Origin: Candidatus Omnitrophota bacterium
GTDB lineage: Bacteria > Omnitrophota > Omnitrophia > Omnitrophales > Aquincolibacteriaceae
NCBI GenBank assembly: GCA_043803685.1
Contig: JAZDJU010000108.1
Location: 1-30,952, forward strand
Direction: 5' to 3'
DNA length: 30,952 nt
Shown: piece by piece, positions 1 through 24,854 of the stretch
Position numbering within the stretch: position 1 is the stretch's first letter
How the letters are laid out: each line of letters begins with the position of its first letter
The notes under the pieces: model-generated
Told to the model about the DNA's origin: nothing
The model's input: the letters and a program-made list of their open reading frames with translations, nothing else
Database searches by the model: none
Made by a program: the position numbers and the translations under genes

Positions 1-696
1 ATTACAGGAGGCACCAGCCGGCTTGGACAGGCGTTCGTTCGGAAAGCGGCCGGGCAAGGGGCCCGTGTTTTTTTTACTTACTTTAGATCTCTCGAAACCG
101 CCCAAGAACTCGAAAAGGGCGGCGCGAAAGGGTTTCTCCTCGATCTAGCCAACTCCCGGGACATCGATGCGTTCGCGGAAGCCTTCAAAGGAGAAAACGA
201 GCAACTGGACGTCCTTATTCATAATGCCGCCGCGACCGCGGACGCGCTCATTGAAAAAATGTCCGAAAAAGAATGGGACGATGTTTTGCGTGTCAATCTC
301 AAGGCGCCATTTTATCTGACCCAGAAACTCCTGCCCCTTCTCCTTATGAAGAAGCCAAGCAAGGTTTTCACTCTGGTCAGCCGCGCGGGTTTGAGCGGTC
401 TTGCCGGAGCCGCGAACTACGCCGCGTCCAAGGGAGGCCTGATCGCCATGACCAAGACTTTAGCCAGAGAGCTCGGTCGCAAAAAGATCCTCGTGAATGC
501 CATCAATCCCGGATTTATGCGATCCGCTATGACCGCCGACGTTCCCCAGGATGTTCTTCAGAGAAGTCTGGAAGACAGCCCTCTCAAGACCTTTTCGGAC
601 CCCGAAGAGGTCGCGGATTTTCTCCTCTTTCTCTCCTCAGACCAGGTGCGCCAGGTGACGGGACAAGTGGTTCATTTTGAATCCCGGCCGTTCTAG
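1..696 (+). CDS. fabG: SDR-family 3-oxoacyl-ACP reductase (FabG-like), 5'-truncated by the window edge
   Basis: Frame 1 is open from base 1 (ITGGTSRLG dinucleotide-binding motif, HNAA, YAASKGG catalytic YxxxK, VNAINPGF, VTGQ). It sits next to fabF and ends in TAG at 694-696. Confidence 0.8.
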   Translation: MTGGTSRLGQAFVRKAAGQGARVFFTYFRSLETAQELEKGGAKGFLLDLANSRDIDAFAEAFKGENEQLDVLIHNAAATADALIEKMSEKEWDDVLRVNLKAPFYLTQKLLPLLLMKKPSKVFTLVSRAGLSGLAGAANYAASKGGLIAMTKTLARELGRKKILVNAINPGFMRSAMTADVPQDVLQRSLEDSPLKTFSDPEEVADFLLFLSSDQVRQVTGQVVHFESRPF

Positions 697-778
697 CCTT
701 GTCTTTGTTTCTGTTCTTAAATGGCGACAAGGCTTGCCCCAATTCAACTTCGTTGAAATTGACAGGAATTGGGACTAA
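693..778. repeat. Diverged two-hairpin relative of the 154-bp element, at the fabG stop codon
   Basis: CTAG-[CCTTGTC-22nt-GACAAGG]-CTTG-[CCCCAATT-22nt-AATTGGGA]-CTAA. The first loop matches the reverse-complemented unit-3 loop of the 154-bp element at 15/22 positions. Confidence 0.6.
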
Positions 779-4709: not shown

Positions 4710-5447
4710 ATGAACGCCGGGATTTTCATTACCGGAACGGACACGGATGTCGGGAAAACGGTGGTTTCTGCCGGCCTTGCGCTCGTTCTCCGGGATCGCG
4801 GGATGAAGGTCGGGATAATGAAACCTGTGGCGACCGGTTGTTATGGCGACGAGGGCCGGCTTATCTCCCAGGACGCAGCGTTTCTCATGGAAGCCGCGCA
4901 GAACGAATATCCGCCGCTCTCGAGCCCTTCGCGTTTCCGGAACGCTCTTTCGCCGAATGTCGCGGCCATGCTTGAAAAAAAGGAAGTCGATGTGCCCGGC
5001 ATCCTCAAAAGCTACCGTGAACTTCAAAAGCATTACGACTTTATGATAGTCGAAGGCATTGGCGGGCTTATGGTCCCTCTTAAAAAGGATTATTACGTCG
5101 CCAACCTTATTCGCGACATGGGTCTCCCGATCCTGATCGTGTCCTATGCCGGACTAGGCGCGATCAATCACACGTTGCTGACCGTGGACGCGGCGACGAT
5201 CCGGGGACTTACAGTACGAGGGATTATTTTCAACCGTGTTTCCGTGACCAACTACTCGCTAGCGGAACTTACCAATCCGAAAGTGATCCACGACCTGTCT
5301 GGAATTCCGATCCTTGGCAGCTTGCCCAATATCGACGGCCTCAACATGGATAATTGCCAATTTGGCAGACTCAAGGAGATCTTTCAGGAACGCATCCAAG
5401 TCGAAAAGATCCAGGGAGTTTGTACCGGCGCTACTTCCCCAAAATAA
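4710..5447 (+). CDS. bioD: Dethiobiotin synthetase
   Basis: FITGTDTDVGKT P-loop, MKPVATG, VEGIGG, LGAINHTLLT. Confidence 0.95.
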   Translation: MNAGIFITGTDTDVGKTVVSAGLALVLRDRGMKVGIMKPVATGCYGDEGRLISQDAAFLMEAAQNEYPPLSSPSRFRNALSPNVAAMLEKKEVDVPGILKSYRELQKHYDFMIVEGIGGLMVPLKKDYYVANLIRDMGLPILIVSYAGLGAINHTLLTVDAATIRGLTVRGIIFNRVSVTNYSLAELTNPKVIHDLSGIPILGSLPNIDGLNMDNCQFGRLKEIFQERIQVEKIQGVCTGATSPK

Positions 5448-5463
5448 CCGAAAGGAACCCTCC

Positions 5464-6846
5464 TTGTCTCAACGGTCCCAATACCCATCAAGCGAAGCCG
5501 AGCCGAGATTGGGGCCGTCCGAGTTGCCATCCGGAGAGAAAAGTAAAAGACTTGGACGGAAAGTCACCGGTATCCGGCTCGAAAGAAAAAAAGATGCGAG
5601 CCTTCTTAACTGGAACCTCAAGCGCCCTTACCCGCCCGAAAAGATCCGGATGCTCGTTCCCGCCGGGACCGAACCGTGCGTCCAAGTTGAGGAGAATGTT
5701 CAGGTCGGGCAAGAGATCGCAAAACCCCGCAGCGCGGAGCGTGTCAGCCTTCACGCGGGCATGACTGGTATCGTGGAGAAGATCGCTGCCTTTCCGGGGA
5801 CGACTGGCGCAGAAAAGCAGATGATCGAGATCCGCAGATATGGAGAGCCTAAAGCGCTTCCTCTAGTGGAGACGCGCAAGGGATGGGGAGAGATCCCGTC
5901 CGAAGAACTTTCTAACATCTTTCAGCGTTCCGGACTTGTGACGACGGATCCGGCGATGGAACCTGTCCACGTGAAGCTCGGCCGGCACGCCGGGGCGCGG
6001 ACGATCATCATTAATGGCTGCGAGCCGGAACCTTATATCACTTCCGAACAAACGCTGATCACGTCCCATCCCGTGGAGATCCTGAAGGGCGCGGGGCTGC
6101 TCAAAAAAGCCATGGGCGCCGAGAAGATCGTATTCGCCCTGGAAAGTTGCAACATCGAGATGATCGAGCTCATCAAGAGCAAGATCTACTTTTTGAAGTG
6201 GGAATACGCGGAAGTCCGGACGGTGCTAGCGCTCTATCCGCAAGGACTCGAAAGCACGCTGCTTCAAGCATGGTTTCCGGGAAAAGAAGACGAGGCTGTT
6301 GTTTTTCCGGCATCCACCGCCTTTGCGGTTTACGAAGCGGTTGTCCTGCAAAAGCCTTTTTATGAAAGAGTCGTGACCGTGGGCGGCGAATGCGTGGTCG
6401 AACCGAGGAGTCTCTGGTTACCGATCGGAATCTCCTTTCAAGATGCGATCCACGCCTGCAAAGGGGTCATGCGCGAACCCCAAAGGATTTTGATGGGCGG
6501 ACCCATGGCTGGAATGGCGCAACCGACCATGGAGGTTCCCGTCACGGTTGGGACGAACGCCATTCTTGCGCTTCCCAAGGAGAGCGCGAGCGAGGGAGCA
6601 GAAATGTGGGAAGTGGCGCCATGCATCCGGTGCAATCTTTGCGTGGATCACTGTCCCGTTCTGCTTTCGCCCGCCATGATCACGATGGCTGCGGAACAAA
6701 AAGAGTTTTCGATCGCAGAGGCGTGGCATGCCGAAGCGTGCATCGAATGCGGGACCTGCGGCTATGTGTGTCCCACCAAACGACCGATGCTGAAATTGAT
6801 CCGCTCGGTCTGTCCTCCCTCAGCGCCGGTGGTGCCCCATGATTGA
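5464..6846 (+). CDS. rnfC: RnfC/RsxC-like subunit with a degenerate FMN/NADH-binding loop and two [4Fe-4S] motifs
   Basis: RnfC domain order (N-terminal barrel, INGCEPEPY, YPQGLE, RVVTVGG SLBB, MGGPMAG, CIRCNLCVDHCP and CIECGTCGYVCP). Start reassigned to TTG 5464 (AAGGA RBS at 5452) because the ORF-track start at 5314 overlaps bioD. Confidence 0.8.
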   Translation: MSQRSQYPSSEAEPRLGPSELPSGEKSKRLGRKVTGIRLERKKDASLLNWNLKRPYPPEKIRMLVPAGTEPCVQVEENVQVGQEIAKPRSAERVSLHAGMTGIVEKIAAFPGTTGAEKQMIEIRRYGEPKALPLVETRKGWGEIPSEELSNIFQRSGLVTTDPAMEPVHVKLGRHAGARTIIINGCEPEPYITSEQTLITSHPVEILKGAGLLKKAMGAEKIVFALESCNIEMIELIKSKIYFLKWEYAEVRTVLALYPQGLESTLLQAWFPGKEDEAVVFPASTAFAVYEAVVLQKPFYERVVTVGGECVVEPRSLWLPIGISFQDAIHACKGVMREPQRILMGGPMAGMAQPTMEVPVTVGTNAILALPKESASEGAEMWEVAPCIRCNLCVDHCPVLLSPAMITMAAEQKEFSIAEAWHAEACIECGTCGYVCPTKRPMLKLIRSVCPPSAPVVPHD

Positions 6847-18852: not shown

Positions 18853-19116
18853 GTGGCAGTCAAAATCAGAATGAAACGTTTCGGCAGCAAGAATCGTCCT
18901 CAGTGGCGTGTCGTGGTCAGCGATGCGAAGATGCCGCGGGATGGGCGCTTTATCGAGGAGATCGGCTATTATGACGCGCTTCCCAAGGAAGATATTTTCG
19001 TCGTAAAACAGGATCGTCTCGAGTATTGGGTTAAGCAGGGAGCGCAGATGAGCGCGGCCTTGAAGAGCCTTGTGCGGCGCGAGAAGAAAAAAACAAAAGC
19101 GAAAAAGAGCGCCTAG
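18853..19116 (+). CDS. rpsP: 30S ribosomal protein S16
   Basis: [45 protein letters not shown] stop. Confidence 0.96.
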
Positions 19117-19270
19117 CACTGTTCTCCATTTGATTTTAAGAGTTAACAGTACTGCCCAAGTCTTTATTTCTTTTTATTAAGGGTGACTTGGACTGCACTG
19201 ATTTTCGATCATTTTTTAATGAAAATCAGGTGCTGTACCGCATACCCTTAATTTCAAATGTGATGCGGTA
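19117..19270 (-). mobile_element. 154-bp four-hairpin MITE-like element, copy 1 (inverted relative to copies 2 and 3)
   Basis: Its reverse complement differs from copy 3 at 7 of 154 positions with no indels. Flanked by CTAG (19113-19116, containing the rpsP stop) and CTAG (19271-19274). Confidence 0.85.
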
Positions 19271-19299
19271 CTAGGACCTTTCGGTCAGAAAGGCGTTCC

Positions 19300-21423: not shown

Positions 21424-21504
21424 TTCTCCGCCGCAAAGAGTGCAAAATAGGGGCCGTTTCTTTTTTGAACCGTGGAAGATTTTAAAGGGCTAACGTTTTT
21501 AATC

Positions 21505-22830
21505 ATGATCGCGAAAAGCCGGAAAATATTTAGTTTCTTTTGTCTTGGACTCGTCGTATGCGCTTGTGTGGGATATGGTGAAGAGAAAAAAGCCGATCTT
21601 TACGCACCGGTTTACACCCAGCCTCTTGCTCCGGAACCTCTCAAAGACGTTTTTTCAAGGATCCTCGAATTCCCCTTTAAGCTGCTCAAGTGGCCCATGG
21701 ATCAAGGGATCCTTTTCAATGAAAAGCACCGGTTTGATAAAAAAACTAAGTGGATTTACGAACAGTCCATCAAACAAGGCGTTAAACCCTTGTTCGGTTT
21801 TGCGGACATAAGCGGGATCCCTTTTTATGGCGCGGAACTGAACCTTTTGACGCTCTCCCGGCAAAAGGAAAAGTTCCCGGACCTGTTCGCCACCACGACG
21901 CTTCTTCACTGTCCCGGCGTTTTCTTTGCGGTAGGTTCCGAGGTCGGGGCGCAAAAGATCCGTGGGACCGGGTTCCATGCGAAGGGGATCTTCAATTACG
22001 ACCGCCAGGAAAAAGAACCTTTTTACGGTATCGGCCCGCATACGAGTTTGGGAGATAGCACCTCCTACCGGATGGAAACCACCCGAGTCGGTATTGCCAC
22101 CGGCTATGAATTCTCGCCCACGATCGATCTGACCGGAGGCTTTGATTACAGAAAAGTGAACATTTTGAACCGGGCCCATGACGGGAAAGGCGATATCAGA
22201 ACGATCTTTGCCGGACAAAATATTCCCGGCATGGACGGGGACGATCTTTTGGAATATGCGCTGGCGCTCGGGAGGGATACCCGTGACAGCAAGGATGACG
22301 CCTCGAAAGGGAGTTATCAGAAACTCCTCTTTCAATTTACGGAAGGCGTTAATGGTTCTTCGGCCCGCTTCTTCAAATACCAGATCGATATGGCAAAATA
22401 TTTTCAACTGGCATCCCCGAGGCGCATCTTTGCCGCGCGTCTGTTTGCTGAGCACAACGAAAAGATCAGCGGAGGGAACGTTCCTTTTTACAATATGGCG
22501 AAACTGGGGGGTTCCGGCACCAATGTTCGGGATAGCCAAACCGAACGGGCTTTTGTTTATAACCGTTTTTACGGTGAGAGCGCCCTGCTTTTGAACCTCG
22601 AATACCGTTACACGGTGATGGAGTACAAGGAATTCAAGCTCAAAGCCGCTATCTTTTCAGATACCGGTGAAGTTTTCGGAAAGATCCACCAATTTCGTCT
22701 GAAGGACCTCCGGGAGTCGTACGGTGTGGGTCTTTATCTTAGCTATTCCAGAAATACGCTCTTGAATTTTTCCGTAGCCCATGGCAATGAAGGCACTCAA
22801 TTCTACGTTAAGAATAAACTCGCGTTCTAG
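21505..22830 (+). CDS. Omp85/BamA-TamA-family beta-barrel outer membrane protein without evident POTRA domains
   Basis: N-terminal signal peptide, FYGIG, RDTRD, ERAFVYNRF (RGF-like loop-6 motif), EYRY, FSDTGEVF, terminal Phe. Start is ATG 21505 or GTG 21472. Confidence 0.75.
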   Translation: MIAKSRKIFSFFCLGLVVCACVGYGEEKKADLYAPVYTQPLAPEPLKDVFSRILEFPFKLLKWPMDQGILFNEKHRFDKKTKWIYEQSIKQGVKPLFGFADISGIPFYGAELNLLTLSRQKEKFPDLFATTTLLHCPGVFFAVGSEVGAQKIRGTGFHAKGIFNYDRQEKEPFYGIGPHTSLGDSTSYRMETTRVGIATGYEFSPTIDLTGGFDYRKVNILNRAHDGKGDIRTIFAGQNIPGMDGDDLLEYALALGRDTRDSKDDASKGSYQKLLFQFTEGVNGSSARFFKYQIDMAKYFQLASPRRIFAARLFAEHNEKISGGNVPFYNMAKLGGSGTNVRDSQTERAFVYNRFYGESALLLNLEYRYTVMEYKEFKLKAAIFSDTGEVFGKIHQFRLKDLRESYGVGLYLSYSRNTLLNFSVAHGNEGTQFYVKNKLAF

Positions 22831-22984
22831 TATCGCATGGCAATTAAAATTAGGGGTATGCGGTACAGCACCTGATTTGCATTAAAAGATGATCGGAGAT
22901 CAGTGCAGTCCAAGTCGCCAGTCATGAAACGAAATAGAGACTTGGGCAGCACTGTTAACCCCTAAAATCAAATAGAGAACAGTA
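22831..22984 (+). mobile_element. 154-bp four-hairpin MITE-like element, copy 2
   Basis: 17 substitutions versus copy 3 with no indels. Flanked by CTAG (22827-22830, Omp85 stop) and CTAG (22985-22988). Confidence 0.85.
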
Positions 22985-22997
22985 CTAGGATGACGAA

Positions 22998-24650
22998 ATG
23001 AAGAATCGGCAAAAAAACATAGCGCAGCTTGGCAATGGATGGATCCTCATGGCCTTGGGTCTCGGGGTCCTTGGTTTTCCGGGGAATGTCTCGGCTGGGG
23101 AGGTTATCAAGTTCAAGGAGAGCGAGTCTTCCTTTTACAGCGACCTTTTCGACCAAAGCGTTTATAGCGAAGGCATCAACCAACTGGATATGGGGCGCTG
23201 GGGGAGGAAGCTTTTTGGAAAAGCGCTTCCTTCCAAGAATGTGAATATTTTTGACGAAGTCCCGGATTCCGGATTTTTCACGAACCGGCAGGGGCGCAAG
23301 AAGCTCTCACTCGAAGCTCTCGAAATGGGATATCAGGAAACTCCGGGGCCTGATCTCAAGGAGCCCTTGCAGGTCACAGCGGCCGAGCAGCGGGGGATCT
23401 ACCCCAGGTTCTGGGTTCGGGATGCGCTTGGAGATGAATACCTTCTAGAATTCGATCCTCAGGGAAATATGGAGCTTGTAACCGGAGCGGAGGCCGTCGC
23501 CAGCCGGGCCTACTATGCTTTGGGATATAACGTGCCCCAGCTTACGATCCTTTCGGTCAAGCCTGAGCAGTTCCGGGTCGCTCCCGGCGCCACCACGTGG
23601 GAAGACACGGGCTTCAAAAAGGAGCTCAGCCAAAAACGTTTTGAAGAATATCTGATGGTGTTGCCGCAGAACGCGGAAGGTCTTTACCGGGCCTCGGCAT
23701 GCAAGCTCATGAAGGGGCGCTATCGCGGGATCTTCAGCTTTGAATCCCGGAGAAAAGACGACCCAGCGGATCTGGTGAACCATCGTGACCGGCGTGAGAT
23801 ACGGGTGCTCGGGGTCTTCGCTTCCTGGCTCAATCACTTCGACCTTCGTGAAAGTGACACCCTGGATGTGTCCATGGAGGAAAACGGGCAATCCATCATA
23901 AAGCATTACCTGACTGATTTTAGCGGGGCTTTAGGCTCGACGCAGGCGGGCCCCAAGGCGCCGATGCTGGGGTATGAACACCAGATCGATTACGGCGAAA
24001 CCTTCAAGTCAATCCTGGCGCTCGGTTTTCGCGAAAAGCCCTGGCAAAAAAAGTGGCGCTTGGAAGGCAAAAAGATCAACGGGTCCCCCGCCGTGGGTTA
24101 TTTTACGAATGAGGTTTTTGACCCAGGACGGTACAAGACCCAATTTCCTTATGAGGCGTTCCGGCTCGTGACCCGCGCTGACGGACTGTGGGCCGCAAAG
24201 CTTCTGAAGAGTTTTTCTGATGAAGATATCCGGGCCATGGTAAAAGCGGGTCAATACAGCGATCCGAAAAATGAAGAGGTTCTTGTCAAAATTCTGAGCG
24301 AAAGGCGGGACAAGATCGTCCTCTTTTGGCTTTCCCGCGCCAATCCTTTGGACGCGTTCTCCTTTTCTGGAGGAAAATTGACTTTTAAGGACCTAGCCGT
24401 TGAAAGTGGCGCTGCCTCCCAAGAGGGGACGGTGTATGACGTTGAAGTGATGGCTAGTGGCGGGAAAGAAAAGATCGCTCGAAACGAAACGAAAGAGCCC
24501 GTGATCGATGTTCCGCTAGCGTGGGTGCCCGAGAATGGCGAAGCCAAGATCCTTCTTCGCGTTGAACGTAATACTTCAAAAAATCAAAGCCCCGCCGTCA
24601 CGATCTCTTTGAATGCGTCCGGCATTCAAGGGATCCAGCACGAAGATTAG
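22998..24650 (+). CDS. Secreted hypothetical protein with an atypical (HipA/PI3K-like) kinase-fold signature and degenerate catalytic residues
   Basis: Signal peptide ending VSA; RGIYPRFWVRD..G.EYLLEFD, TGAE.VASR..YALGYNVP, WLNHFDLRESDTL, YLTDFSGALG. The ORF is solid; the fold is inferred. Confidence 0.55.
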   Translation: MKNRQKNIAQLGNGWILMALGLGVLGFPGNVSAGEVIKFKESESSFYSDLFDQSVYSEGINQLDMGRWGRKLFGKALPSKNVNIFDEVPDSGFFTNRQGRKKLSLEALEMGYQETPGPDLKEPLQVTAAEQRGIYPRFWVRDALGDEYLLEFDPQGNMELVTGAEAVASRAYYALGYNVPQLTILSVKPEQFRVAPGATTWEDTGFKKELSQKRFEEYLMVLPQNAEGLYRASACKLMKGRYRGIFSFESRRKDDPADLVNHRDRREIRVLGVFASWLNHFDLRESDTLDVSMEENGQSIIKHYLTDFSGALGSTQAGPKAPMLGYEHQIDYGETFKSILALGFREKPWQKKWRLEGKKINGSPAVGYFTNEVFDPGRYKTQFPYEAFRLVTRADGLWAAKLLKSFSDEDIRAMVKAGQYSDPKNEEVLVKILSERRDKIVLFWLSRANPLDAFSFSGGKLTFKDLAVESGAASQEGTVYDVEVMASGGKEKIARNETKEPVIDVPLAWVPENGEAKILLRVERNTSKNQSPAVTISLNASGIQGIQHED

Positions 24651-24804
24651 TACCGCATGACATTCGAAATTAGGGGTATGCGGTACAGCACCTGATTTTC
24701 ATTAAAAAATGATCGGAAATCAGTGCAGTCCAAGTCACCCTTAATAAAAAGAAATAAAGACTTGGGCAGTACTGTTAACCCCTAAAATCAAATGGAGAAC
24801 AGTA
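24651..24804 (+). mobile_element. 154-bp four-hairpin MITE-like element, copy 3
   Basis: About 38% GC. Flanked by TTAG (24647-24650, gene stop) and TTAG (24805-24808). Confidence 0.85.
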
Positions 24805-24854
24805 TTAGTATTACGCCGCTATTCTTGTCGCCGGCTCATCCTGAATAGCCCCCC

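What the first reader, a model, noticed from the sequence alone, without database searches (positions are those of the whole stretch)
22827..22988. The element is an array of four CAG-linked hairpins with covariation and loop-loop complementarity
Architecture: YTAG-U1(35)-CAG-U2(37)-CAG-U3(38)-CAG-U4(35)-YTAG. Each unit is a 7-9-bp stem of different sequence (TACCGCAT/ATGCGGTA, CTGATTT/AAATCAG, CCAAGTC/GACTTGG, TACTGTT/AACAGTA) around a roughly 15-22-nt AT-rich loop. Differences between copies fall mostly in loops, and stem changes are mostly G-T wobbles on one strand, pointing to a folded single strand. Loop 1 (TTAGGGGT) is complementary to loop 4 (ACCCCTAA); copy 1 has a compensatory change (TTAAGGGT/ACTCTTAA). 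U1 and U4 are inverted homologues with similar loops but different stems, unlike ordinary MITE terminal repeats. Inference: a structured RNA/ssDNA element, or an array grown by repeated insertion of a ~38-nt hairpin monomer.
Basis: partly seen in the sequence, partly recalled or inferred. Interest (0 to 1): 0.8.

Follow-up and report, generated by a model that had tools for sequence, protein, structure and literature searches.

The report
Nested two-hairpin mobile DNA elements
The four hairpins are real, but they are two tiny gene-less repeat elements of two hairpins each, one sitting in the middle of the other at a gene's stop codon; across copies the three bases between an element's hairpins are complementary to the site it sits in, so these elements likely jump as folded single-stranded DNA and likely pick their landing site by base pairing, using an enzyme not yet identified.

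Summary
The architecture is confirmed (CTAG-35-CAG-37-CAG-38-CAG-35-CTAG). The unit is not a four-hairpin RNA or a repeatedly inserted monomer. It is a 73-nt two-hairpin element (U1+U4) with an ~80-nt two-hairpin element (U2+U3) in its central CAG. Both also occur alone, and a third pair gives six-hairpin arrays. Relatives show an empty site with a single YTAG. A covariance model hits 51 of 96 genomes of the order. The scan reported this nesting before on other DNA of this genome (e1-9836844, e1-9803011). What I add: the 3-nt linker is complementary to the duplicated 3-4-nt insertion site (76/84 and 73/84 loci, about 43 expected; 53/57 in a second family). The excised circle is predicted to fold as a closed dumbbell in which site and linker pair. 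This suggests IS608-like choice of target by DNA-DNA pairing. Stem covariation holds; loop-loop pairing and a one-strand G-T bias in U1/U4 do not. No cognate enzyme was found: Y1 transposases were not found in five element-rich assemblies. Verdict: an unusual new variant of gene-less bacterial mobile repeats.

The parts
22827..22830 (+). Left copy of the 4-nt site CTAG; contains the TAG stop of the Omp85-family gene
   Evidence: single copy of the site in relatives L080 and L083; Omp85 domain
22831..22865 (+). Hairpin A (U1), left half of the outer two-hairpin element
   Evidence: occurs joined directly to D in 14 places in the genome
22866..22868 (+). CAG: linker of the outer element and left copy of the inner element's 3-nt site
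22869..22905 (+). Hairpin B (U2), left half of the inner element, with one bulged base
22906..22908 (+). CAG linker of the inner element; the site into which E-F is inserted in six-hairpin copies
22909..22946 (+). Hairpin C (U3), right half of the inner element
   Evidence: B-C found outside A-D in 4 of 13 distinct copies
22947..22949 (+). CAG: right copy of the inner element's 3-nt site
   Evidence: CAG/CAG/CAG in 11 of 13
22950..22984 (+). Hairpin D (U4), right half of the outer element; inverted homologue of A
22985..22988 (+). Right copy of the 4-nt site CTAG
24647..24808 (+). Second A-B-C-D copy, flanked TTAG/TTAG, on the stop codon of the 550-aa ORF
19113..19274 (-). Third A-B-C-D copy, flanked CTAG/CTAG, on the stop codon of rpsP and in opposite orientation to the gene
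693..777 (-). Related E-type two-hairpin element with TAG / CAA / TAG (site / linker / site)
5473..5559 (+). Related E-type two-hairpin element with CGG / CCG / CGG; net 84 nt, inside a long open frame
21472..22830 (+). Upstream host gene (Omp85 family); not part of the element
22998..24650 (+). Downstream host gene (550 aa, no Pfam or NCBIfam hit); present without these elements in relatives

Best explanation
The feature is one gene-less two-hairpin element (B-CAG-C, about 78 nt) sitting in the central CAG of another (A-CAG-D, 73 nt), which sits on a CTAG stop-codon site that is single in relatives; such elements likely move as single-stranded DNA circles predicted to fold into a closed dumbbell, and likely choose their site by pairing it with their own 3-nt linker. 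SHOWN: pairs occur alone and nested. An insertion adds one extra copy of a 2-4-nt site. The first and last linker bases are complementary to the last and first bases of that site across families (CTAG/CAG, TTAG/CAA, CTAA/TAG, CGG/CCG, TGG/CCA, TCG/CGA, CGAG/CTCG). Stems keep their pairing while their sequence changes. INFERRED: excision from single-stranded DNA as a circle; site-linker pairing in the circle and in target capture; re-use of linkers, stems and loops of resident elements as targets, which builds four- and six-hairpin arrays that then move as units; catalysis in trans by a single-strand cleavage-rejoining enzyme, most plausibly HUH/Y1-like (about 0.3), otherwise unidentified.
For: Architectures in the genome: A-D 14, A-B-C-D 5, A-B-E-F-C-D 4, plus free B-C and E-F. 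55 of 77 arrays are even-numbered. Empty site: ttTTAG|GATGG (L080) and ttCTAG|GATGG (L083) against ttCTAG[154 nt]CTAG GATGA here; 11 of 11 relatives printed lack this element there; three different inserts sit on the rpsP stop. Linker vs flank in 84 A-D loci: 76 (42.4 expected) and 73 (43.4 expected); 39 exact 4-nt and 11 exact 3-nt duplications. On 69 distinct aligned rows these two pairs show 26 and 21 compensatory changes, and slid controls collapse. In 57 E-type loci: 37 identical 3-nt flanks (10 expected), third linker base complementary in 53 and 52 (28.7 expected). In 22 further loci picked by the covariance model or by BLAST, mostly outside the genus: 21 and 18 (low variety, about half from one genome). 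Linker state is heritable on the element tree (13 changes vs null mean 25; 18 vs 25). Circles fold as dumbbells in 47/50 (top) and 49/50 (bottom) (partly by construction). Tandem re-insertion at the regenerated site: L353, L190, L187 and L517. Insertions into linkers, stems and loops of other copies. Identical copies at unlinked loci in G055. Base-pair-chosen cleavage sites are established for IS608 (PMC3201880) and a group 3 TnpA-REP (PMC8266576). Several genus Y1 genes are flanked by palindromes with a 3-nt centre.
Against: No cognate enzyme: none of 30 Y1 loci is bracketed by A-F units. Y1 was not found in G015, G019, G006 or G055, G037, all element-rich but only 67-95% complete. Some copies carry the same off-linker base in both flanks (L151, L205, C98, window copy 24647), as a true target duplication would give and peel-and-paste would not. 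The inner-vs-outer test of where the strand exchange falls is not significant (21 vs 11, p = 0.11). Among 17 E-type copies chosen for a non-C first linker base, only 1 has the complementary left flank base, so a changed linker usually did not redirect; these may be decayed copies. Near-identical bodies share the linker in only 9 of 13 and 37 of 61 pairs, faster change than a stable guide suggests. There is no strict strand or orientation bias (A 17/24, E 20/44 on the G-rich strand). Loci are not independent (orthologues and shared composites), and most A-D loci were fetched with patterns restricted to YRR linkers. No circle or excision was observed.
Confidence: 0.6

Rival explanations
1. Ordinary nested MITEs moved by a DDE transposase. 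A and D are imperfect terminal inverted repeats with a shared subterminal motif (ATTTRAWWTTAGGGGT), YTAR/YNR is a true target duplication, and the linker-flank match arises afterwards by hairpin-templated correction.
For: A and D are inverted homologues. 39 of 84 loci have exact 4-nt duplications. Concordant off-linker flanks exist. One IS4-type element in G012 has ends starting CAATACCGTT, the same 10 nt as linker plus D stem in one lineage.
Against: The duplication length varies from 2 to 4 nt within one superfamily. E-x and B-C have no terminal inverted repeat beyond 3-4 nt. Decayed copies keep linker-flank mismatches, so correction is not efficient. Linker and site are heritable together. 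IS701 and IS630 models found nothing in the genomes searched. The IS4 element has a close match in only 1 of 20 genus genomes.
Confidence: 0.17
2. Conservative site-specific recombination. A recombinase exchanges one strand between the folded circle's core and an identical 2-4-nt core in the chromosome. The core is inherited, and the linker merely co-evolves to keep the dumbbell paired, as in integron attC-type substrates.
For: The dumbbell presents two inverted half-sites around a central bulge or mismatch. The flank stays G when the first linker base has changed to T. Flanks are discordant in several copies, with the right-hand copy off more often at positions 3-4 (13 vs 3).
Against: Targets share no half-site sequence beyond the core. 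Eight of the nine tyrosine-recombinase loci read as XerC/XerD-like or phage-integrase-like proteins by inspection; the ninth (C1) was not translated on its coding strand. No attC consensus was seen (consensus recalled, not from a call).
Confidence: 0.13
3. A structured four-hairpin RNA with a loop1-loop4 kissing interaction, acting on transcripts.
For: Strong folding. RNA minimum-energy folds of the top strand pair loop 1 with loop 4 in all three window copies. U2/U3 and E carry inherited T.G pairs on one strand. Copies sit at gene ends (14 of 24).
Against: No Rfam family. Both orientations relative to genes occur. G.T equals A.C in U1/U4. Loop-loop covariation is weak. The site is empty in relatives. 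No terminator-like or promoter-like match lies inside the element. The pairs occur separately.
Confidence: 0.05
4. The array grew by repeated insertion of a single ~38-nt hairpin monomer.
For: Two single hairpins flanked CTAG/CTAG exist (G000 C72:83949; L515), and halves are exchanged between families.
Against: Even-numbered arrays dominate. The fixed orders A-D, A-BC-D and A-B-EF-C-D recur. The monomers can arise by deletion between the short GTAC repeats at the two ends of D (inference).
Confidence: 0.05

Closest known systems
IS200/IS605 elements (IS608) and their gene-less PATE derivatives
   Same: Two palindromes at the ends. A short internal sequence is complementary to the insertion site, as IS608 guide sequences are to cleavage sites (PMC3201880, part 1 of 5 read). 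Gene-less and short (PATE definition, PMC3119063, passages read).
   Different: Hairpins are terminal, not 10-19 nt subterminal. One shared 3-nt linker matches both ends. The site is present on both sides, whereas PATEs cause no duplication. No strict strand bias, and no TnpA with matching ends was found.
REPINs / BIMEs with RAYT (TnpA-REP), and TIRtrons with TIRYT (Y1 subclass 2.1)
   Same: Intergenic hairpin doublets are the replicative unit, and clusters form by insertion into or next to other copies (PMC3116915, passages read). Y1 genes in this genus are flanked by palindromes with 3-nt centres that resemble the junctions.
   Different: No constant GTAG/GTGG foot and no GGGGWSAS tag (PMC6006769 sections 12 and first part of 15; PMC3733652 passages). 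The doublet is two side-by-side hairpins of different sequence, not one hairpin of two inverted REPs. No associated transposase gene.
MITEs and pneumococcal BOX elements (boxA-boxBn-boxC)
   Same: Modular, AT-rich, gene-less, flanked by short duplications, inserting into one another (PMC3049150, passages read).
   Different: The inner modules are themselves independent two-hairpin elements, not tandem copies of one module. Duplication length varies from 2 to 4 nt. The linker is complementary to the site. No IS with matching ends.

Membership tests
IS200/IS605 / PATE | Palindromes near both ends | tested here: met
   Hairpins at both ends with compensatory changes, but terminal rather than subterminal
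IS200/IS605 / PATE | No target duplication | tested here: not met
   One extra YTAG against the empty site; 50 of 84 and 37 of 57 exact duplications. A carried tail equal to the target could mimic this; unresolved
IS200/IS605 / PATE | Cleavage/target site complementary to an internal guide 5' of the hairpin | tested here: inconclusive
   Complementarity shown; guide function not testable; counter-set
IS200/IS605 / PATE | Ends shared with a TnpA-encoding element | tested here: not met
   30 Y1 loci scanned with unit HMMs, none bracketed; no Y1 found in five element-rich assemblies
IS200/IS605 / PATE | Strand-specific transposition (orientation bias to replication) | tested here: inconclusive
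   A 17/24, D 20/27, E 20/44 on the G-rich strand; GC skew tracks gene strand (r = 0.92) in a 133-contig assembly
REP/REPIN with RAYT | Conserved GT[AG]G tetranucleotide at the hairpin foot | tested here: not met
   Flanks are CTAG, TTAG, CTAA, CTGA, CAG, CGG, TAG, TGG and others
REP/REPIN with RAYT | Cognate RAYT gene flanked by the repeat | tested here: not met
REP/REPIN with RAYT | Doublet is the mobile unit; many intergenic copies | tested here: met
TIRtron/TIRYT repeats | GGGGWSAS-tagged inverted repeats around a Y1 gene | tested here: not met
   Such repeats flank genus Y1 genes but differ in sequence from units A-F
MITE (DDE-mobilised) | Terminal inverted repeats matching a resident IS | tested here: not met
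   Ten DDE_Tnp_1 loci examined; one 10-nt match to an IS4-type end in G012 only; IS701 and IS630 not found
MITE (DDE-mobilised) | Target duplication of fixed length | tested here: not met
   2, 3 and 4 nt occur, 3 and 4 within the A-D family
Known structured RNA | Match to an Rfam model | tested here: not met
   0 hits at gathering threshold in the window
Known structured RNA | Expression and processing as a discrete RNA | not testable with these tools
   No sequencing run was listed

The most novel reading that the evidence does not exclude
A distinct class of self-targeting miniature mobile DNA: a 75-85-nt single-stranded dumbbell whose 3-nt linker reads the insertion site by base pairing, whose halves are exchangeable, which nests into itself to build arrays, and which is moved by a single-strand recombinase outside the known Y1, DDE and IS110 families.
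Probability: 0.25. Interest if true: 0.8.

Novelty: new variant of a known kind. Interest (0 to 1): 0.55.

Why it matters
How REP-like repeats spread is a long-standing open question; REP insertion itself has been hard to trace. This family shows, in natural sequences, a one-to-one link between an internal triplet and the site occupied, many naturally retargeted variants, and recent bursts of near-identical copies. That makes target choice by DNA-DNA pairing directly testable once the enzyme is found. It would also be a minimal programmable insertion substrate of about 80 nt. It explains why stop codons, leaders and other repeats in these bacteria are repeatedly split by hairpin arrays that can be mistaken for RNAs.

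Tried and rejected
Rfam scan: nothing. Search for an autonomous parent: the A...D pair at G000 C37 encloses only a periplasmic-binding-type gene (label by inspection); genes next to 115 merged element loci showed no recurring nuclease by eye (not scanned against Pfam); orphan half-sites were nested insertions or decay. Y1 genes have their own different repeats; the conserved Y1-like gene at C106 has lost the first HUH histidine and the catalytic tyrosine. GIY-YIG genes sit with tRNA duplicates and other hairpins. IS701: none in G000. IS630: none in 5 genomes. IS110: none in G000, G015, G017, G037; one lies about 660 nt from a tandem pair in G055 but is not bracketed by the elements. IS4: G012 only. 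Permuted D-A elements: none among the genus hits fetched. The collection-wide junction scan returned chance hits only. No match in viral contigs, plasmids or phages. Reads: no run was listed, so excision and expression were not examined. I first took L338/L380 as insertions into a known B unit, which would have shown a carried tail; the context check did not bear this out. The independent-pairs tree test lacked supported branches. The pairwise MAFFT of filled vs empty site was uninformative. Literature: searches found no description of this family. One Omnitrophota genome preprint has no occurrence of hairpin, palindrom or MITE in its main text; its supplements were not seen, and subscription papers are not searched.

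Full report
OBSERVATION. The sequence at 22827-22988 reads CTAG, U1 (35 nt), CAG, U2 (37), CAG, U3 (38), CAG, U4 (35), CTAG, as described. Two further copies lie in the window, 24647-24808 (+) and 19113-19274 (-), 86-89% identical to this one. All three sit on a stop codon: of an Omp85-family gene, of a 550-aa ORF and of rpsP. The region folds far better than shuffles (z = -4.78). This particular copy is the most decayed. It has T.G pairs in U1 and U2 and a C.A mismatch in U4, and neither its RNA nor its DNA minimum-energy fold is four hairpins, while the other two copies give four hairpins with DNA parameters. There is no Rfam match.

THE UNIT IS A PAIR OF HAIRPINS. I call U1-U4 A, B, C and D. 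HMM searches of the genome gave A-D 14 times, A-B-C-D 5 times and A-B-E-F-C-D 4 times, plus B-C, E-F, E-C and many E-x pairs on their own. Walking outward from every unit gave 77 arrays: 43 of two, 9 of four, 3 of six and 22 of odd length. By eye, 20 of the 22 odd ones have a decayed, split or missed partner or a spurious extra unit; two stay unresolved. Two clean single hairpins flanked by CTAG exist. B-C lies outside A-D in 4 of 13 distinct copies and is flanked by CAG on both sides in 11 of 13. So the finding is B-C inserted in the linker of A-D, and six-hairpin copies have E-F in the linker of B-C. I had catalogued the architectures before looking at earlier notes. The nesting reading came from notes e1-9836844 and e1-9803011, and I then tested it as above. 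Other nestings occur: into the stem of D, the loop of D, the loop of E and other linkers, and end to end at the regenerated site.

MOBILITY. At the Omp85 stop, all 11 relatives printed lack this element. Two read ttTTAG|GATGG and ttCTAG|GATGG, against ttCTAG-[154 nt]-CTAG-GATGA here, so insertion adds one copy of the 4-nt site. Three different inserts occupy the rpsP stop in three genomes. BLAST finds the element in 18 of 19 other genus genomes. A covariance model of A-D (rough E-values) hits 51 of 96 genomes of the order and none in G013. G055 has identical copies at three unlinked loci. Named records with the motif are mostly Omnitrophota, from which I infer the host group. 14 of 24 A...D copies overlap a called stop codon, against 680 of 15,434 YTAR sites; this is probably selection against coding insertions (inference).

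THE LINKER MATCHES THE SITE. In 84 distinct A-D loci from this genome, relatives and metagenomes, the first linker base is complementary to the last base of the left flank in 76 (42.4 expected by permutation). The third linker base is complementary to the first base of the right flank in 73 (43.4 expected). 39 loci have an exact 4-nt and 11 an exact 3-nt duplication. The outer copies of those flank positions follow too (66 and 75 of 84), so the chromosomal site itself is predicted by the linker: CTAG/CAG, TTAG/CAA, CTAA/TAG, CTGA/TGG, CAA/TAG, TCG/CGA. Most of these loci were fetched with patterns limited to YRR linkers. Copies with other linkers mostly obey the rule (TGG/CCA/TGG, CGAG/CTCG/CGAG, CAG/CCG/CAG), with exceptions. 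On 69 distinct aligned rows the two flank-linker pairs show 26 and 21 compensatory changes, more than any stem pair. In 57 E-type loci, 37 have identical 3-nt flanks (10 expected), and the third linker base matches in 53 and 52 (28.7 expected). The middle base is complementary when G/C and often identical when A/T. In 22 further loci, mostly outside the genus, the counts are 21 and 18; two of these were mis-parsed and about half come from one genome. Loci include orthologues and shared composites, so these counts overstate independence. On the element tree the linker is heritable (13 and 18 changes vs null means of 25) but labile: bodies within 2 differences share it in 9 of 13 pairs. Against a simple guide: among 17 E-type copies selected for a non-C first linker base, only 1 has the complementary left flank base, while the third-base rule holds in 16. 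At roughly this frequency these could be post-insertion mutations (inference).

STRUCTURE. If a copy leaves as a single-stranded circle (site + A + linker + D), the predicted fold is a closed dumbbell. The two stems stack end to end and the site pairs with the linker around one bulge or mismatch: 47 of 50 top strands and 49 of 50 bottom strands (the input was selected for hairpins). Stems deviate less than loops (7.3% vs 15.7%). Stem sequence is freely exchanged with pairing kept, most clearly in the x hairpins and in other genera. The loop motif ATTTRAWWTTAGGGGT is kept in sequence, in inverted orientation in A and D; this accounts for the loop 1/loop 4 complementarity. Its covariation is weak (48 vs 37 at one position without correcting for relatedness). 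A and D show no G.T excess (33 vs 28 A.C). B, C and E carry inherited T.G pairs on one strand. Orientation is mixed relative to genes and to GC skew. This fits DNA better than a functional RNA.

DUPLICATION OR CARRIED TAIL. This is unresolved. Several copies have the same off-linker base in both flanks (L151, L205, C98, window copy 24647), which suggests a true duplication. Others are discordant: six G015 loci have TGAG on the right with TT on the left, and TGG/CCA/TAG occurs. Right-only deviations at positions 3-4 outnumber left-only 13 to 3, but the overall inner/outer test gives p = 0.11. One case I first took as decisive failed its context check.

ENZYME. G000 has three Y1-family genes, one lacking catalytic residues. 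Several Y1 genes of the genus are flanked by palindromes with a 3-nt centre (CAG/CTG, CGG/CCG). In L038 these are spaced to form 8-bp stems with ~19-nt loops, the same grammar as the arrays. But none of 30 Y1 loci is bracketed by units A-F, and Y1 was not found in G015, G019, G006, G055 or G037 (incomplete assemblies). IS701, IS630, IS110, IS4, other DDE genes, GIY-YIG genes and tyrosine recombinases gave no consistent partner. The mover is therefore unknown. An HUH-type single-strand enzyme remains the best guess from mechanism alone.

COMPARISON. It works most like IS608: guide bases pair with the cleavage and target site, and the intermediate is a single-stranded circle (PMC3201880, first of five parts read; PMC5934647, abstract and outline; PMC8266576, passages). 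It fails membership of IS200/IS605-PATE (site on both sides, terminal hairpins, no matching TnpA; PMC3119063, passages), of REP/REPIN (no GTAG foot, no RAYT; PMC3116915 and PMC3733652, passages; PMC6006769, abstract, section 12 and first part of section 15) and of classical MITE/BOX elements (no matching IS, variable duplication; PMC3049150, passages). Eight literature searches found no description of the family. An Omnitrophota genome preprint does not mention hairpins, palindromes or MITEs in its main text (supplements not seen). IS4 duplication lengths and the attC consensus are recalled, not from calls.

VERDICT. A real feature and a new variant of gene-less bacterial mobile repeats. Nested two-hairpin mobile DNA is near-certain (about 0.9). 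The single-stranded dumbbell with base-pair-chosen site is likely (0.6). The family was already noted by this scan on other pieces of the genome; the three notes I saw in summary did not mention the linker-site rule, but I saw only a few lines of each. Interest 0.55.

Noticed in passing
window 5473-5559: An E-type two-hairpin element (CGG/CCG/CGG) adds 84 nt in frame inside the long ORF 5314-6846 (RnfC-like by inspection); it may be translated or may lie upstream of the true start.
   Followed up: partly
window 693-777: An E-type element (TAG/CAA/TAG, minus strand) sits on the stop codon of the ORF ending at 696.
   Followed up: partly
L022 1399-2064 (G000 C106); L030-L032: A conserved Y1-transposase-like gene lacking the first HUH histidine and the catalytic tyrosine, fused in relatives to a C-terminal domain (423 aa) and split in G000. 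It has an AAAGTGC-CAG-GCACTTT palindrome upstream and looks domesticated.
   Followed up: partly
L038 1160-1215 and 1940-2000; L028, L034, L036, L037, L044, L048: Y1 (TIRYT-like) genes are flanked by palindromes with a 3-nt centre; in L038 they are spaced to form hairpin-CGG-hairpin arrays with the gene in one loop.
   Followed up: partly
L387 1-1495: An IS4-subgroup element whose ends begin CAATACCGTT, identical to linker plus D stem in the G015 lineage; a close match was found in only one genus genome.
   Followed up: partly
L517 14-170 and 829-1935: A tandem pair of elements lies about 660 nt from a divergent IS110-family gene in G055; a 58-nt tandem repeat lies upstream of that gene.
   Followed up: partly
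G000 C93 3404-3484: An A-D copy with TTAG/CAA/TTAG interrupts a small HEPN-like ORF (label by inspection); the net 77 nt shifts the frame.
   Followed up: no
G000 C40 49625-50250; C104; C129; L373: Small GIY-YIG genes sit between duplicated tRNA gene copies that are split by short CCGCC...GGCGG double hairpins, a separate repeat family that also enters D and E loops (L005, L355, L187).
   Followed up: no
window 21472-24650: An Omp85-family barrel gene followed by a 550-aa exported protein without Pfam or NCBIfam hit; the latter is found in 18 of 19 other genus genomes.
   Followed up: no
L488, L490, L497, L498 (G055): The same left hairpin is joined to unrelated right hairpins through a 4-nt CAAG linker, showing exchange of halves.
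   Followed up: partly
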